Source of the DNA: Chiloscyllium plagiosum | Lineage: Eukaryota | Direction of reading: 5' to 3' | Length of the DNA: 64,000 nt | NCBI RefSeq assembly: GCF_004010195.1 | Contig: NC_057746.1 | Location: 11,930,236-11,994,235 of the forward strand | In this document: positions 5,230 to 38,689 of the stretch, piece by piece | How the letters are laid out: the number at the start of each line of letters is the position of its first letter | How positions within the stretch are numbered: the first letter of the stretch is position 1 | Program-made: the position numbers and the translations under genes | Notes under the pieces: generated by a model | Seen by the model: only the letters and a program-made list of their open reading frames with translations | Told to the model about the DNA's origin: nothing | Databases searched by the model: none

Positions 5230-8200
5230 AACAAAAACAACAAAGAAAATTTACAGCCCAGGAACAGACACTTCGGCCCTCCAAGCGTGTGCCGATCCAA
5301 ATGTACTGTCTAAACCTGTCAGTCAATTCCTAATCATTTGTAAACCTCTGTTCACCACCTACACATGCATCTGTCCAGACGCATCTTAAATGAATCTACC
5401 GTGCCTGTCTTTACCACCTCTGCTGGCAACGCATTCCAAACGCTCACCACCCTCTGTGTGAAGTCCTTACCGCGTGTATCCCCCTTAAATTTCCTCCTCT
5501 GACTTTGAAAGCGTGAACTCTCGTTATTGAATCCTTCACCCTGGGAAAAAGCTTGTCTCTATCCACCCTGTCTAAACCCTTCATGATTTTGTAAACCTCA
5601 ATCAGGTCCCCCCTCAATCTCCTTTTTTCAGGTGAAAATAAACCTAACCTACTCAACCTCTTTTCATAGATAGCACCTTCCATACTAGGCAACATCTTCG
5701 TAAACCTTCTCTGCACCCTCTAAAAAGCGTCCATGTCCTTTTGGTAATTTGGCGACTAGAACTGTACACAGTATTCTAAATGTGGCTGAATCAATGTCTT
5801 GTACAACGTTAATATGACTTGCCAGCTCTTATACTCAATAACCCGTCCAATGAGGGCAAGCAAACCATATGTCTTCTTGACTACTCTACCCGCCTGTGCA
5901 GCGACCTTCAGGGTACAATGTACCTGCACTCCCAGATCTCTCTGTCCAACAATTTTACCAAGGCTCTTCCGTTTATTGTATAATTCGCACTAGAATTAGT
6001 CTTGCCTACATGCATCACCTCACATTTGTCTGGATTGCAAACCAGCTGCCACTTTTCCGCCCAAATCCCCAGTCTATCTCTCTCCTCCTATATTTTCTGA
6101 CAGTCCCTTATGCTTTCTGCTCCTCCACCAGTCTTCGTGTCATCTGCAAACTTGCTGATCATACCAACAATGCCCTCTTCCAGATCATATATTACAAAGA
6201 ACAGTGGCCCCAACACTGACCCCTGTGGATCACCACTGGTCACCTTTCTCCATTTCAAGAAACTCCCTTCAACTACTATTCTCTGTCTCCTGTTTCTCAA
6301 CCAGATCTTTATCCACCGAGCTAGAACACACTGCACACCATATGACTTCAATTTCTCCATTAGTCTACCATGGGGAACCTTATCAAACGCCTTACTAAAG
6401 TCCATGTATATGACATCAACAGCCCTTCCTTCATCTATCAACTTGCTCACTTCCTCGAAGAACTCAATTAAGTTGGTAAGGCACAGTCTCCCCTGCTCAA
6501 AGCCGTTTTGCCTATCACTGATAAACCCATTCTTTTCTAAATATAAGTAGATCCTATCACTCAGTACCTTCTCCAGCAACTTTCCCAGTGACATCGGACT
6601 CACTAGTCTTTGGTTAGACAGAATAAGTCTACAACCCTTCTTGTACAGGGGGACAACATGAGCTACCCTCCAGTCCTCTGGCACCTCACCTGTATTTAAG
6701 GATTCCACAAAGATATCTATCAGGTACCCAGCTACTTCCTCTCTCACCTCCCTCAGCAACCTGGGATAAATCCCATCTGGTCCCTGGATTTGTCCACCTT
6801 AATAACCTCTAACCTACCAAACACATCTTCACTACTTACGTCAATGTGATCCAGACTAAACAAACTTCTATCTCTAATGTCAACATTCATCCTGCGCCAC
6901 TCCTCAGTGAACACTGTTGTAAAGTAATCATTCAGAATCTCACCTATTCGCTCAAGTTCGACACACAGCCTTCCTTCATTATCCTTTAGTGGACCAATCC
7001 TTTCTCTAGTTACCCTCTTGCTTCTTATCTCAGAATAAAATGCTGGATGCTCCTTAATTCTGCTCACTAAAGCTATTTCATAACTCGTGTAAGCCCATTA
7101 ATTCCTTGTTTAAGACTTGTCCTACTCTTCTGATATTCTTCCAGGGCACGTTCTGTTCTTACCTGCCTATGTCTTATGTATGCTTCCCTTTTCCTCTTAG
7201 CTAGTCGTACAAATTCTCCTAACATCCACTGTTCATGAATGTTGCACTTCCTATCCTTTGCCTTCAACGGGACATGCCTATCCTTCACTGTCTTTAAACT
7301 ATCTTTAAAAGCCTCCCACATCTCAAATGTTGACTTTCCTTCAAATACCTGTGTCCATTCCACATTTCTGAGCTCATGCCTAATTTTGATATACTTGTTC
7401 TTGGCCCAGTTTAGTACTCTTCCTTTATCTACTTTATCCACGAGTATTCTAAAACTTACAGAATTGTGGTCACTGTTCCCAAAGAAAACCCCCACCACAA
7501 CCTTTACCACCTGTCCTGGCTTGTTCCCCAGTACCAGGTCCAATATGGCCCTTTCTCTCGTCGGACTATTGACATACTGCAGTAAAAAAAACTCTACTGG
7601 ACACTTCTTACAAATTCTACCCCATCCAGAGCTCTGACGCTAAGTATATCCCAGTCAATGTTGGGATCACCACTAACCTATTGCCTCTACATCTTTCCAT
7701 AATCTGTTTACCTATTTTTCTTCTACCACATGTTCACTGTTGGGAGGCCTGTAATACAGCCCCAACAGTGTAACTGCACCCTTCTTATTTCTCAGCTCCC
7801 CCATAATGCCTCACTACCCACGACCACAATAGTGTGCTCCTTTAGCAAAGCCGTAATATCGTCTTGACCAACAATTCAACTCCACTCACCCCCCTTTTAC
7901 TTCCCTCCCTGTCCTGTCTGAAGCGTCTATATCCTGGACTGTTTAATTGACAATCATCAAGCACTTCCTTCAACCAAGTCTCTGTGATAACAATAATGTC
8001 ATACTCTCAGGCAGCAATCCAAGCCCTAAGTTCATCTGCCTTACACACTATACTCCTTGCATTAAAGTAGATGCATTTCAGGCTACCAGTTTTTTTTTTT
8101 TTCCTTTTTGGGCTCATCTACTCACTGCCTACTCTTCCCTTTATGAATGCTATCTTCATATTACACACTATACTCCTTGCATTAAAGTAGATGCATTTCA

Positions 8201-9390: not shown

Positions 9391-9493
9391 CTGTGGGTAT
9401 GGGTGGGTATGTGGGTGTGTGTGTGGATGTGTGTGTGGGTGTGTGTGTGTGGGTGTGTGTGTGTGAGAGAGAGAGAGCGAGAGAGAGAGAGAG
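9391..9493 (+). repeat. Compound (GT)n(GA)n microsatellite
   Basis: Read directly from the sequence. Confidence 0.95.
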
Positions 9494-12400
9494 AAGCAGC
9501 TGATGAGAATGTTATTGTTATTTTGGTATTCTCTAATTAGATTCAGGGGTTCAGCCTTTTTTAAAATGAATATTCGCGTTTGCTTCAGTGGTTTTTTTTT
9601 TAATCGAGAATTAACCGGAGTTCAGTCTGGTTAGTATCATATAACTTGACAGCCTTTTAAAACAAATCTGCATCTGCTCAAATTTTCCAATTGTTGACTC
9701 ACAGTCCATGACTTACGAAAGAATGAATATCAAGCTGACATGACAAAGAAAGATTAAAAAAATAACCTTAGAGGACATTGGGATGCTATAGATAAACATA
9801 GGTTAAGTGAATAGTCAAAGACCTGTCAAATAGAGTCTTACGTGGATAAATGAGAAGTTGTCCATTTTGACTGGAAGAAAAGCAATTTTTTTAAATACAG
9901 GGCGATTCCATACCTCTGAGATGCAGTGGGATCATAGTGTAACATTACCTGAATCTCAAAATTCTAGCATACAGATACAGCACTTAATTAGGAAAGCGAA
10001 TAAATGTTTTATTTTTATCATGGGGGAATTTAAACACAAAAGTAGAGAGCACTGCTGAGCTTGTATCTTGAATGTTCTAATTCTTATTGGTCACCCTGTT
10101 TGTGGAAGGAAATAAATACATTGGAAGCAGTTCGGAGAAAGCTTACCAGAATAAAACTTACTGAATGACTTGTCATACAAAGGGAATTCGGGTAGTCTAG
10201 GCTTTTGTCAGTTTGTGTTCAGGAGAGGAAGAGGCAAATTCATTGAAACAAGATGTTTCCTCTTACAGAAAAGACGAGAATGAAGGATTACTGTCTAAAC
10301 GTCAGCAGTTGTCCATTTAAAACAAATCGAGATGATTTGTTTTCTCTCAAAATGTGGAAACTCTGGCACGTTATTAAAGCAGAGCTATGGAACATTTTAA
10401 AGGCAAAGATAAACATTTTATTGTTGAGAGAGGGGTGGTGAAAGGTTTTCAGTGTAGGCAGGAATGTGGATTTAAAGTTACAATTAATGAGACATACTTA
10501 TGTTGAATATCGAACATATCCCTGTTTGTATGGGATGTGGCAGGTTGATTATACTGCCAAATTGGAGTGTCAATGTAAAGATCCAACAAACAAGTTTATA
10601 ATGCTGCAATCCTCCATCTTCAGAGCTTTTTCAATGGTTGAATCTTTCAAGTGTTTGTTTAAAATCACTTAAATTGTGTTGTATCACCAATTGCAGATAT
10701 GGAAACTGTGACACTTCCAAGACAGAAGAGATCCCAGTAATGAATGCAGTGATCACAAAGGAAGTTTTAATCCAACGTGTGACTTAAGTAAGTTTCATCC
10801 AGAACACAACAATGTTAAAGAAATTTGGTGCCACTTCCTGTAAGTTACATGGAGTGGCTTCTGTATGAGTACATGCAAGAGCAATGCGACAAACACCAAC
10901 CTACAGCAGTCACATTAACAAAATTGCTTTAATATGTCTATAATTTTTGCATTTTTCTGAGAGATTGGAGATTTTGTTTGCTTAAAAAATAGTTGCATCC
11001 GTGCAAAATATTCAAAAGTGTTCAGTGGAAAATTGCTTGTCCATTCAATATTCAGATCTCAATTTGTAGTCGACCATTTAGATAGCTGAACTCTGAAACA
11101 AGGATAAATATATTGAACAGTTTGGGTTCCGACCTCCTCCGCTCCCCTCATTCTCGCTGCGGTGTCTTTCAAATTCCCTGTGAAAGTTTTAAAGAAAAAA
11201 GTAGTTTTCCATTGTCCCACTACTTCTAGAAGTTGATCTATTTCATAAAAACAGTTGATCAAAGAATGTGATACTGAATTCCTGAGTATCCAGCATTTTC
11301 ATACCAGCAGTCAGCCAATTGTAGATACAAGAGTTAGGATAAAATATCTTTTTTCATGACTAATTTCAGCTACGGACGCTGAAGAACATGGAAATCAAAT
11401 TTCTCCAGGGAATGTTGTTGTGTTCAGAAAATAAGTTTGCTCCAGTATGTGTATTAATGATCCTTGATTCAGAATTCAAAGCCATGAAAGGAAATTGCTG
11501 GAGAGCTGTTGTTTCCATTGTTCAGGGGCTCCCTCTCGAAAGCATGTGACAGCAGTGCAACAAACAAGATCTGACTATGGCAATCGCATTAAATTTGCCT
11601 CTCTAATGCTTGCTTTGTTCCTATAGACAGAAGCTCTTATTTAGCTAGAACAACAGAAAGCATCCAAATAAAACACGAAAGAACTGTGAATGCTGTAAAT
11701 CAGAAAGAAAAACAGAGTTACTGGAAAGTATCCAAATCTCTTCAATGAAATGTTTCTCTTTCATCAGCTCGGTCCTGAACTGTTTGCCTCCCAATGACCT
11801 CTCTGGTCTAAAAGGTAAGGAAAAATCCTTTTCTCTCCGACATTCTCTGCCTCTCCCCCAACCTGTGCTCTGCTTTCTTGCAAACCAATTATGTAAGTTT
11901 GACAAAAGATATCGCCAACTCATGCAGTCATCCTTTTGCAGTGTGAGCAGTTTAACGAAAGCAGCTGAATAAGAGCTGCAATACTGAATCCAGAGCTTTC
12001 AGCCATTCCAGCAGCTGGCACACACTTGTAGATGGAGGCGAATGCTGATTTCAGTGACTAAACCTTTTCTTGTCTGATCAATTGCAGACCTGGTAAATTT
12101 GACAACCTAAACTGTGATCGAGATGGAAAACCGTGCCCTTCCAAATCTAAGGCGGTCACGAAAAGTATGTTTGATATAATATGCGACAATGACTTTGCTT
12201 TATTCAGAGTACAAGAAAGTGAAAGCAAATTGTTCGTGGTCTGGCAGTTACGATCAGATACCAAGGGACTCCTCATGAAAACATCACACAGTAGTGCAGA
12301 GAATACCATTCCTGACCATAGCAGTCACATACAACCTTTCTATTATCTAGATTATTCTTCGGGGCGGAGAGTTTTTTTTTTCAAAACAGGCAGTTCTAGG

Positions 12401-13153
12401 AGAGGACATCAAGGAAGCTTGAATTCAAAATTGCTTGCAAATTTGGGTTACTTATCCCTGATCATTTTAGTCACTTAAAATGAATATATTCAAGAAATAT
12501 GTATTCCATCACTCATTCACCCTTATCACCAACTACAATGTTCATCAAACCTATGAAAGGGGTTGAAGAATAAAATCAGTATTGATTGCAGTAACCGTCT
12601 GGATTGTAAGACGTTTAACAAAAGCAGCTGAACCCAACCAGCACAACTGAATCCAGAGTCTTCAGCCATTCAAGCAACTGGCACTTAGTAGTAGCTGGAG
12701 GCAAATGCTAACTTAAAGACTTACTTTTTCTTATCTGACCAGTTACAGGCATGGCCAGGTTGACAATCCAAACCGCAAGGGATATGAAAAATATAGTTCT
12801 CCAGGATTGTTTGCAATAACTAGAAAATATGTTTGATCTTTTGTGTAATTCGTACGTCATTTGATATTATATTCTCCAAGGCACTTACTAGAGAACAAGC
12901 ATTTCCTGTGAAGTTATGTAGATATTTCCTTCTGCATCCAGGAACCATGTAGCAGGCCATAGTTACCACAGTAAGCTTAACCCACAAAATATGTATCACA
13001 TCCAGAAGTTGGAAGATGGTGTTCTTTCTTACACAAGACTTTTGCAGTGATAATGTTATGACTTCTGGTGAAGCCCTGCTGGTTGAACTGAGAGCTGGAG
13101 TAAAACGTGATGATTGGCAGTGCCGAGGGTGGGCATGGTACTGACAGTAGTTT

Positions 13154-15473
13154 GAACATAGAACATAGAACATTACAGCGCAGTACAGGCCCTTCGGCCC
13201 TCGACGTTGAGCCGAATAGTCATACTAATCGGAAGCCCATCTAACCTATACTATTCCATCTACGTCCATATGCTTGTCCAATGACGACTTAAACGTACTT
13301 AAAGTTGGCGAATCTACTACCTTTGAAGGCAAAGCATTCCATACCCTAGCTACAATCTGAGTAAAGAAACTACCTCTGACATCTGTCCTATATCTATCAC
13401 CCCTCAATTTAAAGCTACGCCCCGTCGTGTTTGCCGTCCCCATACTTGGAAAAATGCTCTCCCTGTACACCCTATCTAACCCTCTGATTATCTTATATGT
13501 CTCTATGAAGTCACCTCTCAACCTTCTTCTATCCAACGAGAACAGCCTCAGGTCCCTCAGCGTTTCCTCATAAGACCTTCCCTCCATACCTGGTAATATC
13601 CTGGTAAATCTCCTCTGCACCCTTTCCAAAGCTTCCACATCCTTCTTATAATGCGGTGACCAGAACTGTACACAATACTCCAAGTGCGGCCACACCAGAG
13701 TTTTGTACAGCTGTAGCATAACCTCATGGTTCCGGAACTCAATCCCTCTTGTCATAAAAGCTAAAAACTGTATGCCTTCTAAACAACCCTGTCAACCTGA
13801 GTGGCAACATTCAAGGATCTATGTACCTGGACACCGAGATCACTCTGCTCATCTACACTGCTAAGAATCTAACCATTCGCCCAGTACTTTGCATTCTGGT
13901 TACACCGACCAAAGTGAATCACCTCACACTTGTCCGCATTAAACTCCAAATGCCACCTCTCAGCCCAGCTCTGCAGCTGATCTATGTCTCTGTAAACTAC
14001 AACATCCTTTGTCACTATCCACAGTTCCACCGACCTTAGTGTTATCTGCAAATTTACTAACCCACCCTTCAACGCCCTCATCCAGGTCGTTTATAAAAAT
14101 GACGAACAGCAGTGGACCCAACACCCGACCCTTGTGGTACACCACTGGTAACTGGACTCCAGGATGAACTTTTCGCAACAACAACCACCCTCTGTCTTCT
14201 TTCAGCAAGCCAATTACTGATCCAAGCTGCTATATCTCCCAAAAATCCCATTACTCCGCATTTTGTACAATAGTCTACTGTAGGGAACCTTATCGAACGC
14301 ATTGCTGAAATCCATATACACCACATCAACCAGTTTACTAAAATCTGCCTGTTTGGTTACCTTCTCAAAGAACTCTATAAAGTTTGCGAGGCACGACCTG
14401 CCCTTCACAAAACCGTGCTGACTATCCCTGATCAAATTATTCTTTTTTAAATGATTATAAATCCTATCTCTTATAACATTTTCCAAATCTTTGCCAACAA
14501 CTGAAGTAAGGCTCACTGGTCTATAATTACCAGGGTTGTCTCTACTCCCCTTCTTGAAGAGGGGAACCACATTTGCTATCCTCCAGTCTTCGGGCATTAT
14601 TCCTGTAGACAATGAGGATTAAAAGATCAATGCCAAAGGCTCGGCAATCTCCTCCATGGCTTCCCAGAGGATCCTACAATAAATCCCATCCGGCGCAGGG
14701 GACTTATCTAATTTCACACTCTGCAAGATTTCTAATACCTCTATATTGTGAACCTCAATTACACCTAGTCTAGTAGCCTATATCTCAGTATTCTCCTCGA
14801 CAACATTGTCGTTTTCTAGAGTGAATACTGTCAAAAAATATTCATTAAGTGCTTCCCCTATCTCCTCTGACTCCACACATAGCTTCCCACTGCTATCCTT
14901 GATTGGCCCTAATCTTACTCTCATCATTCTTTTATTCCTTAAATACCTATAGAAAGTCTTCGGGTTTACCCTGATACTATCCTCCAACAACCTTTCATGT
15001 CTGCTCCTGGCTCTTCTGAGCTCTCGCTTTAGGTCTTTCCTGGCTACCTTGTAATCCTCAAGCGCCCGAACTGAGCCTTCACATCTCAACCTAACATAAG
15101 CATTCTTCTTCCTCTTGACCAGAGATTCCACTTCCTGCATAAACCTCGGCTCCCGCACTCTACAGCATCCTCCCTGCCTGACAGGTACATACTTATCTAG
15201 GACACACAGGAGCTGTTCCTTGTATAACCTCCACATTTCTAATGTGCCTATCCTCTGCAGTTTCCTTCCCCATCCTATGCGTCCTAAATCTTGCCTAATC
15301 GCATTGTAATTGTCTTCATCCAGCTGTAACACTTGCCCAGTGGTATACACATTTCCCTTTCTGTCACTAAAGTAAACATAACAGAATTGTGATCGCTATC
15401 ACCATACTTCTTACCGACTTCCAAGACAGACACCTGGCCAGGCTCATTACCCAGAACCAAATCTAATGTGGCT
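13154..15473 (-). mobile_element. 5'-truncated CR1 LINE (ORF2 endonuclease end plus RT)
   Basis: ORFs 13246-15350 with NYRPVSLTS, YMDFS, KFAD and HLEYCVQFWSP; (TTCTATG)n tail. Confidence 0.93.
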
Positions 15474-18400
15474 AATACAAAAGTTGCTGTCTGGTCACAA
15501 ACCATTATTGAATTGGCATGATCACGAGAGCTGACAGCAACAACAGAGTGAAGGCAGAACAGAGACATTTCTTTTGCTGCCATTAGTGATGAGTATTGCT
15601 GAGCCTGTACTAAAGAGATTTGCAGGCCACGGCCCACTGTGGGAGTTGAGGAGCTGTACTATTCACTACAAGGACAGACAAGAGTGGCTCTCAATTGGTG
15701 ACTTCATTTGCGCATCACTGACAAGATAACATAATGGAGCAGAAGGGAGTTGGGCTTTGCTCCTGAAGACCCCTCCACTTGGCCTGATTCATGAGAATCT
15801 TGTCAAGAGCCAGTTAACTTGGAAAATTCTGCCCTGTATGTCGTGACAGTACCAAAGGACTTCATTGGAGATATTGGAAAATTGGTTGCCTATTTTGGGC
15901 CTGGAGCTCTTTAGTTGAGATATTTTGAGATGATGCGACAAGTATAAAGTATTGAAGAAATGAATTTGTTGTATCGTATCTCCCTTTCTTTGCTACCACA
16001 CTCCAGCCTCATATTTTGTCTTGCAAACAGCCAATGAGGGTTTTGGGGTAATTAATAATGATCTACTGTAATTGTGTCTTGAATTAGTTTTACAAAACTA
16101 GCTGCCCATGGCTTGAAATGTTCACTCATTTTTTTCAGGTTTATAATGGTGATTTTATTGTGAATGTAGATGTACGCTTAAAATGCCTCAATAGCACTTT
16201 TCTGACTATTTGCAGATCACCTGACAGTCCAAAGTACAAGGTCGATGGAAAACTGTACACTCCAAATCTATCATGAAAAAAGTAAGTTTGAAAACAATAT
16301 GTGGTTCAAGTTTTACTTCATTCAAAGTACACAAAATAGAAAGGAAATTACTTTCTAGGGACTTTTCAGGAAATATCACACAGCAGCACAGTGAACAATT
16401 CAGGCAAGAGCATTTGTATTACTGTCTCTCTGTTATCTGCATTAGAATTAGGGCTTCAGACTTTTGGTTCAAAAATATTGTATTCGGAGAGGACATCAAA
16501 GACACTTCATTGTAAGTTTGCTTGCATTTTGTTACTGAAGTTTCTAAACTCTGAATATGAATACATTCAAGAACTTGATATCCCATTTCTGTCTCTAATC
16601 GTTATCACCAGCAACAAAGGTTTTGAAGAACAAATTCACCATCTATTGCAGTCACCCATCTGGAGTGTGGTCTGTTTCACTCAAACGGCTGAATGCAGGC
16701 TGCAGTCCTGAATCCCGAATCTTCAGTCTTTCAAATAGCTAGCACACAATTGTGGGATGGAGGCAAATGCTCATTTAAATAACTTCATTTATCTTTTATG
16801 ATCAATTGCAGGCATGGTAAGTGCGACAATCCAAAGTGCGATGGAAATGAAACTTATAGTCCGTCCTGATCAACTGATGAGATTAAAGTGTCAGTTTAAT
16901 CCAAAGTGCAATTTAATTCCTGATTAATATTGTATTAGGAATAAAGGTTGTTGCTGGAGAACCAGCAATTCCTATGAAGTTATGTAGGTATTTCTTCCTG
17001 CATACATGCGAGAACAATGTCAAAACAAGGTCATAGTTAGCACATGACGGAAACTGCTGGGCTCTGCCTCCCAAGTGTGTATTTTTCCTCGAAGTTAGAT
17101 TTTGGTGGTTTTTTTTAACATGACATTTGCAGTAATAATGTTGTGAATTGTGGTGGAGCCCTGCTGCTTGGACACAGCGTTGCTGTGAATGATGGCACCA
17201 CTAATGTTTGCATGCTGCTGATGTGGACTGATCAAGAAGCTGTTGCTGGGTCACTATCCCAAGCATGAAATGGCCCAATCTAAAGAGCTGATAGTTTAAT
17301 TGGAGCAATAGCAGAGTGGCAAATATTTCTGTGCCACTATTAATATTTGCAATTGTTGAGCCAATACCCATTGATGAGGAAAAGTCAATCCTGTATGTAG
17401 ATCCAGTATCCAAAGCTCTTCAATTGAGACATTGGACAGTTAGTTGCCCTTCTATAATTGCCATATGCTCTTTATTTGAGACTTTTCTAGACTATGCATC
17501 ACGCGTAAATGATTGAAAAAATGGGTTTGTCACATTCTTCATTTCCATGTTCTAGCCTGACTGTCAGTGGCTTGAAATCCTGACACTCCTATTCAAGTTT
17601 CTAAAAATGCTTTTATTCTGAACGTAAATGTTTGCATAAATTGACTTAATAGCACTTGATAACCATTTTCATTTTTGAAAACATCAACTGCTGAAAATGC
17701 AAGGGAGCTGGTGATTCTGGTTCTCCAGAAACTAAGAAGGTCATTGAAAAGTAAGCTGAATACAACGTGTGACTGTCTACTAACAGTTAGCAGATCTGGC
17801 TGCATTTGTGGAGTGAAAGGAGAGTTAATGTTTTTAGTTGAACGACTCATGTTCAGAACTTCAGATCTCTCTGAAGAAGGGTCACTTGACTCAACGTGAA
17901 CTCTGCTTTCTCACCAAAGATGCTGCAAAATATGTTGAGTTTCTCCAGAAACTTCTGTATTTCTTTCAGATTGTCAACTTCCACAGTTTTTTCTTTTACA
18001 TTAAGGAAATTATTGACTGGCATATAATCTTTGATCTATCGTTAGTCTTGTAAAAAGACATTTTAGGTGGAAGCTTGCAGTTAATGCTGCAGACCTGATG
18101 CTGGGAGTGAAATATGAAGGCTTTGGCGTATGCTCGGGATGGTATGTTGCCAGCAGTGACCAATGAAGAGAGCCTTCATTGATGAAGGGCTTTTGCCCGA
18201 CAGGGTGATTTTCCTGATACTCACATACTGCCTGACCTGCTGTACTTTTCCAGCACCATTCTAATCTAAAATGAAGAGATTCTTGCCAGGGTTACTCATC
18301 AGTTGACTGTGCAGTTTAGTTTCAAGAGCTGCTACTCCAGTAAGAGGGAGGACAGATCAACACATTTCTTAGCTCTACTATTCATACTGATCATTGCTGA

Positions 18401-19017
18401 GGCTGCAAAGTTGGACACAATCAGAGAAATGAGGGAGGCAGGCCTGAGACATCATGGAGAGTCAAGATGTCAAAGATAACTGTTTATGTCAGCATGGCCT
18501 AGCAATGAGAAGGTGCCAGACTCCCTCCCTGCCATTTTCCGAATCCTACCACCTCCCAATTAAAAGCCAATGAATAATTGAGTATGCATTAACACAAAGT
18601 CTTTCAATAATCATTTCTAGGCCTTCAATGTTCAGTCCTTCAGTTGTTCACTTCCAAGCACTGGACTGTGGAATGAGGCTGAACATATTCAAAAAAAAAT
18701 AACTACCTAGCTCTCTTCTTCCCAATACTATTACATCGGCCATCTCCCCTCACCCCCATCTCTTCAAAAAAACAGGCCATGGTGTCCTGCAAACCTCTGT
18801 GAATTTTGAAAAAAAGGCAACATATATTGCAGTCGTAGCTTTTGAAAGTGGCCTTTTTTGACAGAATGTAATGTGAAAAGGAATTTCTATAGAGTAGGAG
18901 TTTCTGTAAGATTTCTGGAGAAACTTTCTCTTGACAACGTCTCCCAGTGCTATAGCAAGCACTACCATTCCAGGCCACAGCCCCTCCCAATATTTGCATT
19001 ATTCCTGGTGATTACAT

Positions 19018-19342
19018 GGGCGGCACGGTAGCACAGTGGTTAGCACTGCTGCTTCACAGCGCCAGAGACCCGGGTTCAATTCCCGCCTCAGGCGACTCTC
19101 TGTGTGGAGTTTGCACATTCTCCCCGTGTCTGCGTGGGTTTCCTCCGGGTGCTCCGGTTTCCTCCCACAATCCAAAAATGTGCAGGGGTTAGATGAATTG
19201 GCCATACTAAATTGCCCGTAGTGTTAGATGAAGGGGTAAATGTAGGAGAATGGGTCTGGGTGGGTTACGCTTCGGCGGGTCGGTGTGGACTTGTTGGGCC
19301 GAAGGGCCTGTTTCCACACTGTAAGTAATCTAATCTAATCTA
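19018..19342 (+). mobile_element. HE1-like SINE
   Basis: Near-identical to 1110-1426, with (AATCT)n tail. Confidence 0.9.
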
Positions 19343-20484
19343 CAGTGATTCCTCTTTTTTTAAAAAAAATGCTGTATCAGCTCAATAGAGCATTTCGATA
19401 TTCAGGGTTTATTTTCAAATGTTTGCAAGTCATTTATAGGTGTAAGTCCTTTGTTTAATTTGTGCTTCATGATGACTTGTGGCTGGCGACATTTTGACAG
19501 ACCAGATTGTCAGGAGGATGGGAATCAAATTTTGCCAGGCGTGAGGGCAAACATGAAGAAGCAACTTTGATTTGATCTGATTTTGATGTGGTTTAATTAT
19601 GCTTCATTTGGAATACAACAATGTGAAAAGGGAATGTTGGAGAACCATTGATTCCTTTAAAATGTTTTGTGCAATGCGGCAAATGTCAGTCCAGACAATA
19701 GCAGCTAAATTAATGAGGCTGCTGGACTGCCTCCCGAGGAATTTAATATTTGAGAGAGAGTTTTCTTAAACAGTAGTACTACCATCCTAAACGCTGAGAT
19801 GGGAAATTGCTTGCTGATCAATATTGTGGTTCTATTTCTTGACAATGGAATCTTAGAGAAAATACTGAAGATTTTACCCCCTGACAAGCCCACTTTGTTC
19901 ATGCAGATCCTCTTTGAATATTGTATCAGTCTGGCTGTTGAAAGACAGCTTTGGAAAGTTGTTTATTTCTGTCAACTTCTATTTAATGAATTGCTGAAAT
20001 GTTGGAAAATGCATTTACAAAACTAAGGTATCTTGTAAAATCAGGAGATGTGCACAGTGCAAATAAAAATCCCATTTAATGTTGGCCTGGGCAAGCCTGG
20101 TAAACTTAAACTTGCGCTTATAGAGAAAGGACTGAGATCTTAACTGTCTCATTATCTAATGTATTGAATTTGAACTTATGTCTGTCTGTAAATTCTTGAT
20201 CCATACTGTCTCCAGTACCCCTTGTATACACACTCTGTTCTTTGGTTCTCTGATTGCTTTATATCTTTTTGTCCATGAGTATGGTCAAGCCCACTTAAGT
20301 AGCTGTACTTTACTGATAAACTTCCTTAGATGCCCTCTGGTACTCATCCTCTCTTTGAAAGCTTGCTTAAAAGGCGGTTTCATGTTTCTGGTCAGTGGTC
20401 CTAATTCTTCTGATACATGCAAACAACCTTCTCCAGTTTGGCATTCGGTGCATCCTTTCCTAGTTTGGAAGGTCGAATTCGAAT

Positions 20485-29419: not shown

Positions 29420-29876
29420 ACTCAAGGTTAGTGCATATTTATTCGAGATTAATTAACCATTTCAGAAAGCAGTTTTATCCAAAAGGTTGATGTAAAAGTG
29501 AACAGAAGTGAATATAATGGCTGAATGCTACATTGAGACGAGAACACATGCGCTGTGAGCGGGGAATTTTCGTCACAAGAAAGGAATACAAAGGCTCATC
29601 ATAAAGGTTACGCAACTGTTCTGAATAAGGAACAAATAAAAACAAAACAAATAGGCTTCAAACAGCTGGGAAGCTACAAATTCTTCCAACCACAACCATC
29701 TCAACGATATCAAAGTAAAAAGGAAAATCCATCAATAATTGTCTCAGTTACACGCTGATAAACGGAAGTGATATCACTGTTAGAGTCAGTAACAGGACAG
29801 ATTGTCGATTGGGAGTTCAGAGACCTTGATAAGCAGAGCAGGGAAATCAAAGGGGTCCACAATTCGTTAACTTAAC
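29420..29876 (-). pseudogene. IGHM: IgM TM2 exon (VK..) plus 3' UTR
   Basis: Strong acceptor TCTCTCTTTTCCAG|GTT AAG after a 137-nt intron. AATAAA on the minus strand at 29438-29443. Confidence 0.75.
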
Positions 29877-30013
29877 CTGGAAAAGAGAGATAAAGCAATG
29901 AAGAATTTGTTTATAATCAGGGACTTTCAGATTTTTTTTATTCAATAGCACACTTAAGGATTTCACAAAACATATTGGGCTGTTTGACATGTGAAAGATG
30001 TGATCATTCTCAC

Positions 30014-30084
30014 CTTCACCAGACTAACGGCTATAGAAAATACTCAGGAAGAACAAGGTGATGCACGTGGAAGCAGTTGTCCAG
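30014..30084 (-). pseudogene. IGHM: IgM TM1 exon, 3' part (WTTASTCITLFFLSIFYS^AVSLVK)
   Basis: CART-type transmembrane motif; donor AAG|GTGAGA. An apparent 5-nt deletion after FYS shifts the frame. The 5' part is in the gap. Confidence 0.85.
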
Positions 30085-30584
30085 NNNNNNNNNNNNNNNN
30101 NNNNNNNNNNNNNNNNNNNNNNNNNNNNNNNNNNNNNNNNNNNNNNNNNNNNNNNNNNNNNNNNNNNNNNNNNNNNNNNNNNNNNNNNNNNNNNNNNNNN
30201 NNNNNNNNNNNNNNNNNNNNNNNNNNNNNNNNNNNNNNNNNNNNNNNNNNNNNNNNNNNNNNNNNNNNNNNNNNNNNNNNNNNNNNNNNNNNNNNNNNNN
30301 NNNNNNNNNNNNNNNNNNNNNNNNNNNNNNNNNNNNNNNNNNNNNNNNNNNNNNNNNNNNNNNNNNNNNNNNNNNNNNNNNNNNNNNNNNNNNNNNNNNN
30401 NNNNNNNNNNNNNNNNNNNNNNNNNNNNNNNNNNNNNNNNNNNNNNNNNNNNNNNNNNNNNNNNNNNNNNNNNNNNNNNNNNNNNNNNNNNNNNNNNNNN
30501 NNNNNNNNNNNNNNNNNNNNNNNNNNNNNNNNNNNNNNNNNNNNNNNNNNNNNNNNNNNNNNNNNNNNNNNNNNNNNNNNNNNN
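30085..30584. other. Assembly gap (exactly 500 N)
   Basis: N run. The other gaps are 24485-25270 and 58397-58805. Confidence 0.99.
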
Positions 30585-30702
30585 TCGGATGCATCATTAA
30601 TGCACCCAACGATGTTTGTTCATTACCAATCAAAGCCTACAATTGATGTAACTGGATCTGGATTACACATGGGATCCTTTGTGCTTTAATCTCACCGCTC
30701 AC

Positions 30703-31011
30703 CTTTCTCCTTGTGGATGGAGTCTCTCAGCGGAGTCGGTAGATTCTGATGGTACACCACACATTCAAAAGTAACGCCACTCAGCCAGGCTTCAGTAGAA
30801 ATGTCTAATTTGCTGATCACGCTGCCGGGATTCTGTCCAGGTTGGTCAGCAATCTCTGATTTCAAAGGCTTCTTTTCTTGTGTCCAGGTTACGTTGATGC
30901 CAGAATGAAGATTAGACACAACGCAGGTTAACATCACCGTCGCCTCCAGTAAGACTTGTTCTACTGGCGGTGGGAGGATTTTAACAGTGTTCGCGTGGCA
31001 CTCGGTATCTT
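30703..31011 (-). CDS. IGHM: IgM CH3 exon, intact ([60 protein letters not shown])
   Basis: 309-nt open exon, both Cys and the Trp present, canonical AG/GT, phase 1-1. Part of the pseudogene. Confidence 0.93.
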
Positions 31012-32960
31012 CTATGAAACAAAAATCAAAGACAATTAAAAATATCTCTTTATGATTAAAGCACCTAATCTTCAGATTACTTCTTCACAGGGTGAAGACA
31101 CCACCTTCAAAATGGCAACTCCAACCATTGCTGAAACGATGCTTATTATTGTTGATTTGTTTTGATTTGTGAAATCATTTGTGATTACCTCTGACATAGC
31201 CGGTGTAAATATTCCATAAGAACACTGACTTTGTAACAAGTGAAACCTGTGAAAAAAGTAAAATCATCATGTAACCCATGGAGTTACCTTTCTTTCAGAG
31301 TTTGTCTCTCACTTAACACGATCTATTGATGCTTGTGACAAGAGTAATCTAAATATAATGAGTTCATTTCCATGTTCGTAATCCTTACGTGCAAATGCTG
31401 CTGGTCACGCTGACTGCAAAATCACATCACAAATTTTGGACAAATTATAATAAATAATAATTATTCTCTTTGTAGAGTTCTAAAGAGTTACAGGAGTGGT
31501 GAACAACCATGGAAATTATGTTCATTATGTTTAAAGTAACTGAAAATGCTTTGCGTTATTGGTCATTCCCTAATTTATGTCATTGTACCTCGTGGACTGA
31601 GTTTGGAATAGATTGAAAACAAGACACTGAGTACAGAATTGGATATCGAGAAGGACACCCATCTCCTTAAGTCTTTCCCTCCAATCAGTTAGGTCATAAC
31701 TGCTCTGTACTTTCACTTTATTTACCAAGCTGCATTTTTAAATTTCTTCATAGAACAGGGGAGAAAGAAAACAAGCAAAAGTGTCTTAAATTAATCTACA
31801 AATGCGATGGAAACGTGCACTAATCTTATATACATCCACTACTCACTGTGTAAACATCGCCACCCCACACCAGGCTAACTCAGCCTGCCTCGAGTTCCTA
31901 GCCCATTCATCCCTGTTGTAGCATTCTTACCAGAATGTATTCTCCTGCCTCAGCCACGAATTACAGAAAGCATCTTAAAGAAGCTCAGTGAGATCATGTT
32001 TATCCCTGTTAATCAAATGTGATACCCACTTGGTCTGTGGTCTAATTCAATAAATGAAGTTAAAGAACTCAGTACCAGATAAAAAAATCGATGTCGTACA
32101 ATGTCCAAGCCCGACAGGTCATTCCTGAGCAGGGAATGAAGCATTGAACGCATTTTGATTTATTTTCAAGTAAAGGTCACAGCATATTTTAATCACGTCA
32201 TTTTGAGACCACAATATCATAAGGTAGAGTATCAGAATAAGGCTCTTCGGCCAATCCAGAGTTTAGATCAGAAAGATGCTGGAAAGGCACAGCAGGTCAG
32301 GCAGCATCCAAGGAGCAGGAAAATCGACATTTCGGCCAAAGCCATTCTACTGTCTTCTCCCCATACTAAACAAGAGTTGATCTCTCTCTGGCTTCAATAC
32401 ACACAATGGCGCGGCCTCCACAGCCCTCTGCAGCAACAAGTTCCACAGATTCAACACCGTCTGGCTGAAGAAATTCCTCCCCATCTCAGTTCGAAACGGT
32501 GCCCCTTTGACGCTAAGACTGTGCCCTTGGGTCCTAGTCTCACCTACCAGTCAAAACATCTATTCCACGTTCACTCGACCTCAGTCTCTCAGTATTTTCT
32601 ATGTTTCAATCAGATATCTCTCCAATATCCCCCTCCACCCAAAACTTATCCTTGCCGCGGCTACCAGCCAAGGATTCAGCACTCTGAATGCCTCTCCCAG
32701 CATGGTCAGGCAACAAACGATTTAACAAAGCTCACTGTCTATATATCTATCTTCAACAGAGGGGAAACCTGCTTTTCTGACGTGCCAAAAGGTTGAATTA
32801 TGAGCAATGCTAATGTAACACTCAAACTGAAATGAGATAGGTGGCAAGATTGGGAAATGAGAAGCTGTACTGTGCTGTTTACTACGCCTGATAAATTAGT
32901 GTGTTTGATTCACATCAGAGTTCAGAATGATTTGTAGCTCTCTCAGTGTGTGTCTCTTAC

Positions 32961-33251
32961 CCTGGAGTGTGGTGATGTTTTTACTTTGAATGTTCCCTCC
33001 ATGAGTGGCCTGGCAGGTATAGACTGCGCTGTTGAACCATTCACCATAAGGGACCATCAGCCGACTCGTCACCGAGTCGTTCCCGTTTGCCTCACACACG
33101 GGAGACGTGAAGAAGCCAGAATCCAAGCGTCGGCCAATTTTCAACCAAATCACGGAGATTGACTTCGGATGGAAATCGATGGTTGCAAACTTGCTGCTTG
33201 CGATTTCTTCACTGGAGCTCACAGTAAGGAAAAGAGTTGGTTGGAGAATGT
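32961..33251 (-). pseudogene. IGHM: IgM CH2 exon ([21 protein letters not shown]^[26 protein letters not shown])
   Basis: 291 nt, phase 1-1 using acceptor TCCAG and donor GTAAGA. An in-frame loss of about 5 codons removes the first canonical Cys (expected ..IVCSIxDF..). Confidence 0.9.
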
Positions 33252-33369
33252 CTGGACCCTTAGGAACCACATTGCATAAATTATCTGACGAATTTCATAA
33301 CAAATACAATCAGTTCTCATATATCAAGGGTTCTTGTGGTTAATGGATACAAGAATCATAATTGTACAG

Positions 33370-36300
33370 AGTGCTGGAGAAGCTGGGATCCACACAGATA
33401 GATCAGCAGGACAATATGAAAGGCTAAAATTATAGGACAGAGCAAGGGAGTCAAGGAAGCATAGAAACTATAGGCCGGTTAAATCAAAAGGGAGATAGCA
33501 ATGTTGGATGGTATACGTTTTAATGACAGAGTCTGATGAACAAGCAGATGAATTATCGTCATAAATGAGGAAATTATACGGTTGCTATCACGGAGACATA
33601 TTGAGAGCGGGGCAGGAATGGCTATTCAATATTCCTGGATTTAGTCATGTCAGGCGAGACAGGGAAAGATGGAAGAGAATGGGGGCGGAGGTGTGCTGTA
33701 CAGAATGTTTCTTCTGTCGCAATTCTGACAAGAGTATTTTAGGCTGTAAAGAAAAATGAAATCATGGATACCTCCTCGAACGACGGCAAATGGAGAGTAC
33801 TTCAAAACAAAAATACAACAAGCATAATTACTGGGAGATGGAAATGTGTTGCTGGAAAAGCGCAGCAGGTCAGGCAGCATCTAGGGAACAGGAGAATCGA
33901 CGTTTCGGGCATTAGCCCTTCTTCAGGAATTACTGGGAGAGCACGATAGACCTTACTATAGGTCCAAAAGACCAAGTGCAGATACATGGGCAAATTTCAG
34001 AGAAACGTAAATTAAATAGGGGAATGAGAAAAGAGGTTTTTAACTTCCTCAGCAAATGCTTGGATATTCATTTTTGACAAAAGTTTAGAGGGAGCAGAAT
34101 TCTGAAAATGCCCCCAGGAGAATATTTTTACAAACTATGTGTTTAATACAGAGAATCTTAATCCAGACCATGCAAGAGAGGGGCGAACCCTAGACTTTAC
34201 TTTAGGGAATGAAGTCAATGAAAACATCAATGGAAAGTGCAGACAGTGATCATAAATCGGTTGGATTCCAGATTGTTCTGGAAAGGGATAAAAATTGGCC
34301 CAAAGTTCTGAAGGGGGAAGGACAATGTTAATAAGATCAGGTAATGATTTGACCAGAGTGAACTGGAAGCTGGCACTTACTGGCAAATCTAAATCAGAGC
34401 AGTGTAACACATTGAAGAAAGAAATAAGAAAGAAATAAAAACAGAGAGGTCATTTCCCAGGAAGCCACTGCGTGGGACCAAGAATGTAGCGGGCTCTGGA
34501 AACCAAAGGGCATGGAGGGTGAGATAAAGAGCAACAAGGGAGACGTCCGGTCTATCCTGAAATCTCAAAACAATAGAAACTATTATGGAGTACAGAACGT
34601 GCAAGGGGGAGTTTGAAAGAAAGTGGTATTAGGAGAGCAAAAGGGACCATGAGAAAATAATAGCAGTCAAAATGCAGGAAAATACTTCAAAAAGTTACAG
34701 GCTCATTCATAATAAAAGAATAATTCGGGAAACAGTAATGCCCATTAAATGTTATTACTGGAGTCGAGCCGACGGATTAGGTTGTGGTCGAAACAAACAC
34801 CTGGAATATTGTATGCAGTTCTGATCTCCAAATTTGAGGAAAGAAATTCTGAATATTGAGGGAGTGCAGCGTAGGTTCACGACGTCAATTCCTGGAATGG
34901 CGGGACTATCTTATGTTGAAAGATTGGAGTGACTGGGCTTGTATACCCTTGAGTTTAGAATGCTGAGAGGGGATCTGATTGAGACGTATAAGATTATTAA
35001 AGGATCAGACACTCTGGAGGCAGGAAACCGATGGGTGTTTCCGCTGATGGGTGAATTCCGAACCAGAGGACACAGCTTAAAACTAAGGGGTAGGCCATAT
35101 AGGACAGAGATGAGGAGAAACGTCTTCACCCAGAGAGTGGTGGGTGTGTGCAATGCTCTGCCCCAGAAGGCAGTGGAGGCCCAGTCTCTGGATTCGTTTA
35201 AGAACGAGTTGGATAGAGCTCTCAAGGATAATAGAATAAAGTGTTATGCGGATAAGACAGGAACAGGATACTGATTGAGGATCGTCAGCCAAGATCATAA
35301 TGAATGGTGGTGCAGGCTCGAAGGGCAGAATGGCCTACTCCTGCATCTATTAAATATTGTGTTGTTTCAATGTTCACTAGTAAGAGGGACAATGTGGGGG
35401 CAGAAATCATGGAGGAGTGGTGTGATGTACGTTTGGAAATTAGGACACATGATGTGATGTTCTGTGTTATCTTGCTGGATGAAAAGCGGTTATATTTCCA
35501 GGGCAGATTAAATGTATACCAAACTGTTGAGTGATGCAAAGGATGAAATAGTTGAGTCGCTGACAATAATTTAGAATTGCTGTCTGGCCACAGCAGTTGC
35601 GCTGAGTGTAGATCAGCCAATGTTGCACTGTTATGCAGGACGAAGGAAGGGACAAACAATGAAAACACAGATCTGTCAAGCTACTCTAAGTGGTAGGGAA
35701 ACTATTGGAACTATTGAGAAGCGGAATTAGTCTTGATTTGGAAGATCAATCAACAATTTGCAGCACGGTTTTATTGAGAGGAAGTCATGTGTAACAATTT
35801 GATGGTAGTTTTCAGAGAGATAACTCGATGTCCAGATGATAGCAATAATTAGAGCCAATGGGATCCGAGTTAATTTGACAGATTGGATCTAGAACTGGCT
35901 GAGTGGTGGGAGCAGGGGATAATGGTAATAGGGCGTCTGCGTGACTGGAAATCTATGTCTCGTGGTGTTCTGCAGGGATTGGTGTTGATTTCCTTGCTGT
36001 TTTTCTTATATACCAATGATTGAGACTCGAATGTAGGAGGGTTAACCAGTAAATTCACAGATGAAAGGAAACTTGTCACGTTGGTAAGTCGTGAGCATAA
36101 TAGCTTTAGCTTGCAGGAGGATATACAAAGGTTGGTTATATATGAAGAGAATTTGCAAATGAAAATCATTCTGGATAAATGCAAAGTGGTGTAATTCGGC
36201 AGAATAAAATGTGAGGTATTACGTTTTGAATGGTGGAACTCTGGAAAGGACTGAGGATCTTTGGTGTACGTAACCACCAATCCCCTATAGTACTGTGTCG

Positions 36301-37960
36301 TCTGGATAAAGAGGCTAAGAAGGTGGAGAAGTTATTTTCTTTTATTAGCCGAGACATTGCCAATGCAGAGTAGGGAGATGATACTGGAACTTAATCAAAC
36401 ACAGGTTAGGCCATACTGAAGTGTTGTGTGCATGTTCTTTAAGGACCTACAGTGTTATACATTGGGTGCAGTTTGCTGTCCTGGTGATTTGTGCTGTTTC
36501 AGTGACAATGTTTACAAGAAAATCTAAGGTAGGAATCATGTACAGTGCTGAGTCCTCTACTTTTTGTCATTTACATAAATGATTTGAATGCGAGCGAAGA
36601 GGGTTACCTCAGATTGCAACAGGATCTTGACCAGATGGGCTAATGGGCTTAGAAATGAGAGATGGAGTTGAATTCAGACAAATGCGAGGTGCTGCATTTT
36701 GGGAAAGCAAATCTTAGCAGGACTTATACACTTAATGGTAAGGCCCTAGGGAGTGTTGCTGAACAAAGAGGACTTGGAGTGCAGGCTCATAGCTCCTTGA
36801 AAGTGGAGTTGCAGAGAGATAGGTTAGTGAAGAAGGCGTTTGGCATGCTTTCCTTTTTTTGAGTACAGGAATTGGGAGGTCATGTTGTGGCTGTACAGGA
36901 CATTAGTTAGGCCATTGTTGGAATATTGAAAGCAATTCTGGTCTCCTTCCTATCGGAAAGTTGTTGTGAAACTTGAAAGGGCTCAGAAAAGATTTACAAG
37001 GTGTGGCCAGGGTTGGAGGATTTGAGCTATAGGGAGAGGCTGAACAGGGTGGTGTTGTTTTCCCTGGCGCATCAGAGGCTGAGGGGTAACCTTATAGAGG
37101 TTTACAAAATTATGACGGATATGGATAGGGTAAATAGGTAAAGTCTTTTCCCTGGGGTCGGGGAGTTCAGAACTAGTGGGCATAGGGATATGGTGAGAGG
37201 GGAAAGATATAAAAGAAACCTAAGGGGCAACGTTTTCGCACAGAGAATGTTACATGTATGGATTGACCTGCCAGTGGAAGTGGTGGAGGCTGGCACAATT
37301 GCAACGTTTCAGAGGCATTTGGATGCGTATATAAATAGGAACAGTTTGGAACGATATGTGCCGGGTGCTTGCAGGTGGGAATGGATTGGGTTGGGATAAC
37401 TGGTCGGAATAGACGGGTAGGACCGAAGGGTTTATTTCCATGCTGTACATCTCTATGACTCTATGAATGTGTTTACATGAAGGTAGCATTGATGAGATTT
37501 GCAAAGATTTTGCCTGAGTTGGAGGATTTTAATTATGAAACTAGATTAGATAGACGTGGGTTTTCCTTTGATCAGAGGAGAAACAGGGAGAAGATTATCA
37601 TGATGTCTGTAATTATTTTAGGCATAGATAGGGTAAACTGGACGAAACCTTTCCCCTTGATGGAGAGATCAATGACTCAGGCGCACAGGGTGAATATCAG
37701 GCCAGGAGGTTTAGAGTGGGATCTTGTGGTTAACAAAATCAAACAGAAGGTGGTGTGAGTCTGGAGCTCAGTGCCTATAAGTCATGTAGAGACTGAGCCC
37801 CTCATAATAAGCATGAAGTAATTAGAGGCATACTTGCAAAGGCAAGTCATTCACAGCAATGGATCAAGTGCTGGACCATGAGATTGGAATAGTTAGGTGG
37901 CTGTTATTGATAGGCGTGTACTGGATCGACCAAAGGGCCTTTCTCTTGTGCTGTATAAGG
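33370..37960 (+). mobile_element. Nested pile of CR1 LINE fragments in the CH1-CH2 intron (younger 3' ends at about 34790-35370 and 36520-37465)
   Basis: RGDLIETYKI and FTQRVV C-terminal ORF2 motifs; degenerate endonuclease and RT sequence. Confidence 0.8.
33899..33926 (-). ncRNA. Minimal hammerhead ribozyme motif in a Penelope-derived short repeat (33835-33930)
   Basis: Minus strand CTGAAGA-A-GGGC-TAAT-GCCC-GAAAC-GTC. Confidence 0.75.
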
Positions 37961-38044
37961 TGATTCAGTGAAAACTGTTACAAATAATGCCTTATTCATA
38001 TTAATCCCAGATGCTCTGCTTATCTCAGTTTCCACAACACTCAT

Positions 38045-38350
38045 CTGGACATGGCATTTCTTTGCTCTTGTGTGACCCGCTGTGTTGGACGTCACAGTTG
38101 ATTTTGCTGGGGCAACTTACCGCTGACTCGGGCAGGGTTAACTGGCCGCTCAGTATGTAGGTTCCCTTCTGGTTTTTCGCTGATGGGTAAGTCTTCAATC
38201 CAGTCGTGATTAGCTCCCCACCTTTCTTCCAGGTTACCTTGGTGACGTCAGTGGAATAGTACATCGCCAAACAACCAAAGATCACAGAACCGGTGATGTG
38301 CTCCTGACAGGGGGAGACCAGACCATAAAGCGTGGGGGTAAACGGTGTCT
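38045..38350 (-). pseudogene. IGHM: IgM CH1 exon (ETPFTPTLYGLVSPCQ..IFGCLAM..VTWKK..YPS..INCDVQH..MPCP)
   Basis: Open 306-nt phase 1-1 exon with C1-set Cys/Trp/Cys. Acceptor TTGTAG is intact; donor is mutated (CCAG|ATGAGT). Confidence 0.93.
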
Positions 38351-38689
38351 CTACAATAGAATGACCAATTGAGCATGTTAGTTTCTGTTAATTTGACCTT
38401 ATCAGTTACTCAATTGTATCATCAGCTGTAAACGTTTGCCAGTATGTTCCCGCTGAAGTCTACAGCATAAATGGTTTTGTTTTTGTTTCCTACCAGTTGC
38501 TGATGATGATCATTGGTTCCCTCTTTATAAACATGCCCTCGACCTTGACCATTGCCATATAATTTTGGAAGAAGAACATCCTGATCCCACCCCAGTAACT
38601 GTTTGAAGATTACACTTTCTCTGGATTGCAAGTGATGAGCGGAGTGGTTTCACAAAATACCAACGAAGGAAATGCAGATTCATCGAAAT

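What the first reader, a model, noticed from the sequence alone, without database searches (positions are those of the whole stretch)
10540..20050. Fossil of a large intronless repeated-domain gene of unidentified family beside the IgM cluster
Seen: a minus-strand motif recurs every ~600-740 nt. Copies: 10685-10720 LEVSQFPYLQLV; ~11390 LEKI*FPCSS; 11925-12150 FPSRSQFRLSNLPGLQLIRQEKV*SLKSAFASIYKCVPAAGMAESSGFSIAALIQLL; 12570-12800; 16200-16270; 16620-16860 FPSHFGLSHLPCLQLII..EDSGFRTAACIQ; probably ~17550-17690; 19450-19540 FPSS*QSGLSK. Linkers also align (QQGFTRSHNIITAKV vs QQGSTTIHNIITANV; CRRKYLHNF vs CRKKYLHNF). Many differences between copies are synonymous (TCA/TCG, AAG/AAA, TTC/TTT, GAC/GAT, CAT/CAC, TAT/TAC, AGA/AGG). 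Inference: the copies diverged under protein-level selection as domains of one multi-kb ORF, later destroyed by stops, frameshifts and LINE/SINE insertions. I recognise no transposon or Ig-family motif. It could be a lineage-specific gene co-duplicated with Ig clusters, or an endogenous viral or mobile relic.
Basis: partly seen in the sequence, partly recalled or inferred. Interest (0 to 1): 0.72.

Follow-up and report, generated by a model that had tools for sequence, protein, structure and literature searches.

The report
Dead RGL1 exon array beside IgM
The repeat is a row of broken, roughly 78-base exons from a shark copy of the signalling gene RGL1, read on the strand opposite to the one first proposed, which likely landed behind an antibody (IgM) gene long ago and has been copied along with it as a passenger.

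Summary
The repeat is real (8 units here, 11 in the fullest paralogue), but it is not an intronless minus-strand ORF. On the plus strand each unit is an acceptor (mostly TTGCAG), a 61-78 nt phase-2 exon and a GTAAGT-type donor. A profile of the exon peptides hits catshark RGL1 (E 2.6e-50) and zebra-shark RGL1-like proteins. The unit is a 26-residue loop segment of the REM domain. It is single in human, bird, coelacanth, chimaera, sawfish and two squalomorph sharks, and present 6-16 times in galeomorph sharks. The window's block keeps introns, is 72-80% colinear with dispersed RGL1-like pseudogenes, and lacks the catalytic exons. All 17 tabulated copies are broken, often by shared defects. It lies 7-20 kb behind, and head-on to, IgM membrane exons at 7 of 11 such loci examined. 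No intact RGL1 was found in this assembly. Verdict: a duplicated pseudogene fragment of a known gene. The exon expansion, the apparent RGL1 loss and the IgM hitch-hiking were not found in 7 literature searches.

The parts
9489..10696 (+). Intron-derived DNA upstream of the first repeat exon; start of detectable homology to a dispersed RGL1-like pseudogene (G000 C8:56.68 Mb, 68%)
10697..10759 (+). Pseudo-exon U11, 63 nt, AG acceptor, donor mutated (GG); matches the first, 21-residue repeat of zebra-shark RGL1-like proteins
11370..11430 (+). Pseudo-exon U10, 61 nt, frameshifted, donor AT
12088..12164 (+). Pseudo-exon U9, 77 nt (frameshift), AG and GT kept
12749..12826 (+). Pseudo-exon U8, 78 nt, open frame, donor AT in 12 of 12 copies
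13150..15470 (-). CR1-type LINE inserted in an intron; absent from most paralogues, shared with the C11 copy
16216..16281 (+). Pseudo-exon U7, 66 nt, stop codon
16812..16889 (+). Pseudo-exon U6, 78 nt, AG and GT kept, one stop in this copy
17673..17750 (+). Pseudo-exon U5, 78 nt, acceptor mutated (AT), stop shared by 9 of 10 copies
19017..19340 (.). SINE insertion absent from the paralogues compared
19483..19560 (+). Pseudo-exon U4, 78 nt, acceptor mutated (GG), GC donor
19865..19880 (.). Deletion junction: about 7.5-10 kb holding units U3, U2, U1 and the 3' end of the RGL1 fragment is missing here and present in paralogues
29870..38387 (-). Neighbouring IgM-type constant region: CH1 38025-38387, CH2 32896-33294, CH3 30692-31084, TM1 about 30024-30080, TM2 about 29870; CH4 would fall in the N gap

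Best explanation
The array is a broken, intron-containing fragment of an RGL1-like gene, made of its tandemly multiplied REM-loop exons, which likely was inserted behind a founder IgM cluster and has since been copied with the cluster as an inert passenger. Steps. (1) Shown: RGL1 has one 26-residue segment in the REM domain in most vertebrates and 6-16 in galeomorph sharks. Inferred: this arose by tandem duplication of a symmetric phase-2 exon with its flanking intron, probably by unequal crossing-over. (2) Shown: zebra shark has many fast-diverged RGL1-like proteins and this genome has dispersed RGL1-like pseudogenes. Inferred: the gene was released from constraint and amplified in the carpet-shark line. 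(3) Shown: the IgM-linked block is colinear with those pseudogenes, introns included, and stops about 350 nt after the last repeat exon. Inferred: a DNA-level segmental duplication, not retroposition, placed a truncated piece head-on to an IgM 3' end. (4) Shown: splice-site losses and frameshifts are shared across copies. Inferred: it was dead before the cluster copies radiated and makes no protein.
For: Splice anatomy: majority AG in 8 of 11 units, GT/GC in 7 of 11, AAG at +3..+5 in 8 of 11; between-unit identity is 0.6-0.9 at most splice-site columns against about 0.25 further out. Modal length is 78 nt in U2, U5, U6 and U8. Fixed stops in the phase-2 frame: 1, against a shuffle mean of 8.7, 0 of 1000 shuffles as low. 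The profile search of 1.84 billion proteins has RGL1 of Scyliorhinus torazame on top (E 2.6e-50, 12 stretches) and two Stegostoma proteins among 9 hits. Seven of the 8 window exons match a shark RGL1 repeat at shuffle p<=0.005. Stegostoma isoforms P0004 and P0017 differ by exactly the 21-residue first repeat, the size and phase of U11. Repeat counts by species. Colinearity with G000 C10:89.0 Mb (15 units) and C16:70.4 Mb (11 units), both followed by broken CDC25 exons. All 17 tabulated loci are broken. IgM linkage.
Against: pN/pS between units is not below the shuffle null even in the true frame (0.91 against 0.86, p 0.67), so coding origin rests on splice signals, stop depletion and homology, not on dN/dS. 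Three other frames also have few fixed stops (4, 3 and 2). Six of the 9 profile hits are unrelated repeat proteins. U10 and U1 gave no significant peptide match in the copies tested. Exon boundaries were not checked against the genomic DNA of an intact RGL1. Only 4 of 18 array loci could be followed into IgM membrane exons; 11 end at or next to an assembly gap or contig end and 3 end in other sequence. The CDC25 tree has no RALGDS/RGL2/RGL3 outgroup and does not place the long Stegostoma branch.
Confidence: 0.88

Rival explanations
1. Same RGL1 origin, but the fragment has been co-opted as a 3' cis-regulatory element (enhancer, insulator or antisense terminator) of the IgM cluster and is kept for that reason.
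For: It sits 7-20 kb 3' of the membrane exons at 7 of 11 IgM loci examined. IgH 3' enhancers occupy such a position in mammals and catfish (recalled, not tested).
Against: Copies lose large parts freely: the window lacks U1-U3, C4 lacks U1-U4, C100293 shows one unit. Paralogue divergence in exons (0.08-0.11) is like that of the surrounding block (JC mean 0.086). No chromatin or reporter data were available.
Confidence: 0.07
2. The exons belong to a still-working RGL1-like gene whose other exons are hidden in assembly gaps or lie in an unsampled copy.
For: The assembly is gapped, genome searches score only the best candidates (40 of 150), and zebra shark has full-length RGL1-like gene models.
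Against: Shared broken donors (U8 12 of 12, U11 11 of 11) and frameshifts (U9 13 of 15, U10 14 of 15). No REM or CDC25 exon was found in the window plus 60 kb upstream or in 16 other regions. Homology to the fuller pseudogenes stops after the last repeat exon.
Confidence: 0.03
3. One reading: one multi-kb intronless minus-strand ORF of an unknown, viral or mobile family.
For: The minus-strand peptides align, and that frame scores high on BLOSUM within the exon span (p 0.004).
Against: No period-3 signal where the control has power; indels are not in threes (24 of 94); no Pfam family at E<0.1 for the 9 open frames tested in 11.6-20.5 kb; no long ORF in 16 paralogous regions beyond one 163-codon stretch; the frame is the wobble-sharing antisense of real exons.
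Confidence: 0.02

Closest known systems
RGL1 (RalGDS-like 1) of galeomorph sharks, e.g. Scyliorhinus torazame XP_072367689.1
   Same: 26-residue repeats inside the RasGEF_N/REM domain; the window's exons translate to these repeats.
   Different: Those proteins are intact, with REM, CDC25 and RA domains, and are 90-94% identical to each other in a CDC25 exon. The window holds only the repeat exons, broken.
Stegostoma tigrinum RGL1-like multigene family (e.g. XP_059505548.1, XP_059505550.1)
   Same: Closest units: U11 and U2 score higher against these than against other sharks (56 vs 42; 85 vs 65 and 46), including the short first repeat.
   Different: Annotated as open gene models (21 clusters at 90% identity). 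Linkage of these to IgM could not be tested.
Vertebrate RGL1 (human, bird, coelacanth, chimaera, sawfish, squalomorph sharks)
   Same: Same segment at the same place in the REM domain; it aligns to a gapped, divergent stretch of the RGL2 chain in PDB 4JGW.
   Different: One copy only (24-26 residues).
Tandem exon duplication arrays and unprocessed (duplicated) pseudogenes in general
   Same: Symmetric-phase exon copied with its splice sites; introns kept; disabling mutations.
   Different: Here a dead fragment rides in an antigen-receptor cluster. The general classes are recalled; PMC8373072 on tandem exon duplication was seen only as a search listing.

Membership tests
RGL1 / RalGDS family gene (functional) | REM (RasGEF_N) domain sequence | tested here: inconclusive
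   Only the internal repeat segment of the REM domain is present; flanking REM exons not found.
RGL1 / RalGDS family gene (functional) | CDC25 (RasGEF) catalytic exons downstream | tested here: not met
   None in the IgM-linked blocks; the same searches find them at C10, C16 and C8:56.7 Mb.
RGL1 / RalGDS family gene (functional) | C-terminal RA domain | tested here: not met
   No hit in any region tested.
RGL1 / RalGDS family gene (functional) | Intact splice sites and frame | tested here: not met
   0 of 8 window exons have AG, GT/GC, a length divisible by 3 and no stop all at once; 17 of 17 loci broken.
RGL1-derived rather than RALGDS/RGL2/RGL3-derived | Repeat shared with RGL1 orthologues; best hits RGL1 | tested here: met
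   the named top hits are RGL1.
RGL1-derived rather than RALGDS/RGL2/RGL3-derived | Phylogenetic placement against the other three paralogues | tested here: inconclusive
   The tree has no paralogue outgroup and leaves the long Stegostoma branch unplaced.
Unprocessed (duplicated) pseudogene fragment | Introns retained and colinear with fuller copies | tested here: met
   72-80% colinear intron DNA with C10 and C16 loci.
Unprocessed (duplicated) pseudogene fragment | Disabling mutations | tested here: met
Unprocessed (duplicated) pseudogene fragment | No functional transcript | tested here: inconclusive
   One lay on a paralogue gave no spliced joints, without a positive control.
Tandem exon duplication array | Symmetric-phase exon repeated with acceptor and donor | tested here: met
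   isoform difference of one unit in Stegostoma.
Endogenous viral or transposable element | RT, integrase, transposase or viral protein homology, or a long ORF | tested here: not met
   No such Pfam hit at E<0.1 in the array's open frames; protein homology is to a host gene.
IgH 3' enhancer | B-cell enhancer activity or open chromatin | not testable with these tools
   Position only.

The most novel reading that the evidence does not exclude
Galeomorph sharks turned one REM-loop exon of RGL1 into an alternatively spliced array of up to 16 copies; in carpet sharks the gene then escaped constraint, amplified, and in this species was lost altogether; and a relic of it marks a single founder from which most present IgM clusters descend, perhaps now serving as their 3' regulatory element.
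Probability: 0.3. Interest if true: 0.62.

Novelty: new variant of a known kind. Interest (0 to 1): 0.4.

Why it matters
The feature itself is a dead passenger. It matters in three modest ways. First, it is a non-Ig marker built into the IgM cluster unit. The block copies form a tight group (JC mean 0.086 among 9) set apart from dispersed RGL1-like relics (0.21-0.26), so many IgM clusters in this lineage likely descend from one founder younger than the capture. That makes birth-and-death turnover of shark IgH clusters testable across species. Second, it exposes a clean lineage-specific exon expansion in a conserved Ras effector (1 copy against 6-16). Third, it points to acceleration, amplification and possible loss of RGL1 in carpet sharks.

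Tried and rejected
Long minus-strand ORF: six-frame block tests, period-3 and indel tests and an ORF scan of 16 paralogous regions were negative. dN/dS on the true exons gave no signal either. Pfam on 9 open frames in the array region found nothing at E<0.1. RNA: no RNA holder listed. One lay of 4 runs on a paralogous array showed reads piling on SINE-like stretches and no spliced joint between exons; it had no positive control and read only 2-6% of two single-cell runs, so it is no evidence. A controlled expression test remains open. Search for an intact RGL1 in G000 with two whole proteins and four protein parts found only paralogues at 45-74% and broken relics; these searches are floors, two of them ran with a stricter first look, and the assembly is gapped. 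Absolute dating with the epaulette-shark pedigree rate (7e-10 per base per generation, abstract of PMC10587355) was not used: it gives tens of millions of generations, which seems too old by recalled shark divergence times. Literature: 7 full-text searches (listings and abstract starts only) found nothing on shark RGL1 repeats, loss or IgM linkage. PMC10751288 (passages) mentions rgl-like genes only in the MHC class III region. PMC12227049 (term search of the main text and 2 supplements) has no RGL mention. Subscription papers on nurse-shark IgM clusters are mostly outside the library and may describe this flank. Earlier scan findings: none. No structure prediction or complex job was run; they would not change the verdict.
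Full report
Observation. The region holds a real, old repeat. A self-comparison aligns 12069-13104 with 16197-17189 at 63% over 1070 nt and shows several shorter pairs at 59-72%. An iterated nucleotide profile finds 8 units in the window, all in one orientation, and 11 in the fullest paralogue. A CR1 LINE (about 13150-15470) and a SINE (19017-19340) interrupt it. A 7.5-10 kb piece with three more units is deleted from the window at about 19871. The block is multi-copy: 55 matches at 66-94% besides and including itself, with only 40 of 150 candidates scored.

The long-ORF reading fails. Between units there is no period-3 pattern of mismatches (p 0.14-0.85 in 5 comparisons using 8-15 copies a side; p 0.41-0.88 in 4 window pairs). 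The same test on dead CR1 reading frames at 65-73% identity gives p<0.0005 in both controls. Indels fixed between units are multiples of three in 24 of 94 cases. No frame stood out in four conserved blocks.

What the units are. Read on the plus strand, each core is an acceptor, a short exon and a donor. A majority of copies keep AG in 8 of 11 units, GT or GC in 7 of 11, and AAG at +3 to +5 in 8 of 11. Identity between units is 0.6-0.9 at most splice-site columns and about 0.25 further into the intron (the intron side was compared without gaps, which lowers the far columns). The modal length is 78 nt, with one 63-nt unit. The phase-2 frame has 1 fixed stop in five 78-nt units against 8.7 expected (0 of 1000 shuffles), though three other frames are also low (4, 3, 2), and pN/pS in the true frame is not below the null (0.91 against 0.86).

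Identity. A profile of 32 exon peptides searched against 1.84 billion proteins returned 9 hits. The best is Scyliorhinus torazame RGL1 isoform X14 (E 2.6e-50, 12 stretches); two more are Stegostoma tigrinum proteins; six are unrelated repeat proteins. Seven of the 8 window exons match a shark RGL1 repeat at shuffle p<=0.005; U10 does not. The segment lies inside the RasGEF_N (REM) domain and aligns to a gapped stretch of the RGL2 chain of PDB 4JGW, so it is probably a surface loop (inference). Its length is 24-26 residues in human, a bird, Latimeria, Callorhinchus, Pristis, Heptranchias and Pristiophorus, and 5.6, 8.0, 12.0 and 15.6-16.6 units in Heterodontus, Cetorhinus, Mustelus and Scyliorhinus, with 7-9 in Stegostoma; Rhinoraja could not be parsed. 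The expansion therefore follows the galeomorph sharks (grouping recalled; the four species form one clade at 99/97). Two Stegostoma isoforms differ by exactly the 21-residue first repeat, matching the 63-nt unit and its phase. These are database gene models, not checked against genomic DNA here.

Family history. Stegostoma has 21 RGL1-like protein clusters at 90% identity. They sit on a branch of about 0.96 changes per site, against end branches of 0.01-0.09 for other cartilaginous-fish RGL1, and are 70% identical to basking-shark RGL1 in an exon where other sharks, sawfish and chimaera are 90-94%. In this genome there are dispersed relics with 15 units (C10:89.0 Mb), 11 units (C16:70.4 Mb) and 6 units (C8:56.7 Mb), each followed by broken CDC25 exons. 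A fourth at C26:52.1 Mb has an RGL1-type first exon, a broken REM exon and 4 units, and is likely the native locus; no CDC25 exon was seen in the 47 kb below it, which has gaps. Six searches found no intact RGL1. The intact genes at C30 and C37:18.3 Mb are 45-79% identical by exon and are likely RALGDS and RGL2 (labels recalled). Loss is likely but not shown.

The IgM-linked piece. It is colinear with the C10 and C16 relics at 72-80%, introns included, and homology ends about 350 nt after the last repeat exon. No REM, CDC25 or RA exon was found in the window plus 60 kb upstream or in the other fetched blocks. All 17 tabulated loci are broken, and several defects are shared: U8 donor AT in 12 of 12, U11 donor lost in 11 of 11, U9 77 nt in 13 of 15, U10 out of frame in 14 of 15. 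So the piece was likely dead before it multiplied. Of 18 array loci, 4 run on into IgM membrane exons, 11 stop at or beside a gap or contig end, and 3 stop in other sequence. In the reverse test I took 7 of the 41 membrane-exon matches, chosen for long contigs: 3 carry units, 3 break at a gap first, and the most divergent one (76%) shows none in 30 gapped kb. Together 7 of 11 IgM loci examined carry it, always head-on. Nine block copies differ by JC 0.086 on average and by 0.21-0.26 from C10 and C16, which group apart from them.

Mechanism. Shown: repeat exons, RGL1 homology, truncation, shared decay, IgM linkage. Inferred: tandem exon duplication by unequal crossing-over in a galeomorph ancestor; release and amplification of RGL1 in the carpet-shark line; one DNA-level insertion of a truncated piece behind an IgM cluster; passive co-duplication since. 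A regulatory role is not excluded but has only position in its favour. Expression is untested: the one lay had no positive control.

Novelty. The kind is ordinary: a duplicated pseudogene fragment with tandem exons. The particulars were not found in 7 full-text searches or in passages of PMC10751288 and PMC12227049. The repeat-bearing proteins are already in NCBI annotation. The library lacks most subscription papers, so earlier mention in shark IgM cluster studies cannot be ruled out. Interest 0.40.

Noticed in passing
window 29870-38387: The window's own IgM constant region looks damaged: TM1 ends in an early stop and CH2 aligns to a paralogue in three separate pieces. No V, D or J segment was recognised by a crude motif scan of 38-64 kb.
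   Followed up: partly
G000 C26:52117000-52181700 (L155, L156, L159): Likely native RGL1 locus, decayed: RGL1-type first exon, broken REM exon, 4 repeat units.
   Followed up: partly
G000 C37:18.26-18.31 Mb (L170): An intact RalGDS-family gene, likely RGL2, lies 6.3 Mb from the window on the same contig. PMC10751288 places rgl-like genes in the shark MHC class III region, so this IgM cluster may be on the MHC chromosome.
   Followed up: no
P0004, P0021-P0040: Stegostoma has at least 21 RGL1-like protein clusters, many on one 90.6-Mb contig, most lacking the RA domain.
   Followed up: partly
window 51514-58259: Nested inverted repeats (arms of 95-137 nt at 74-92%) around retroelement-like ORF fragments.
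   Followed up: no
window 46861-47180: Degenerate 45-nt tandem repeat, A-rich.
   Followed up: no
window 28207-28308 and 28763-28864: A separate 102-nt direct repeat (79%) just 3' of the IgM membrane exons.
   Followed up: no
L042:9044-9587: 181-codon open frame made of 14-residue tandem repeats in the C8:26.35 Mb region.
   Followed up: no
L029 about 6300-7230: 308-codon ORF that looks like a G-protein-coupled receptor, beyond a gap next to the C37:11.55 Mb array copy (label recalled).
   Followed up: no
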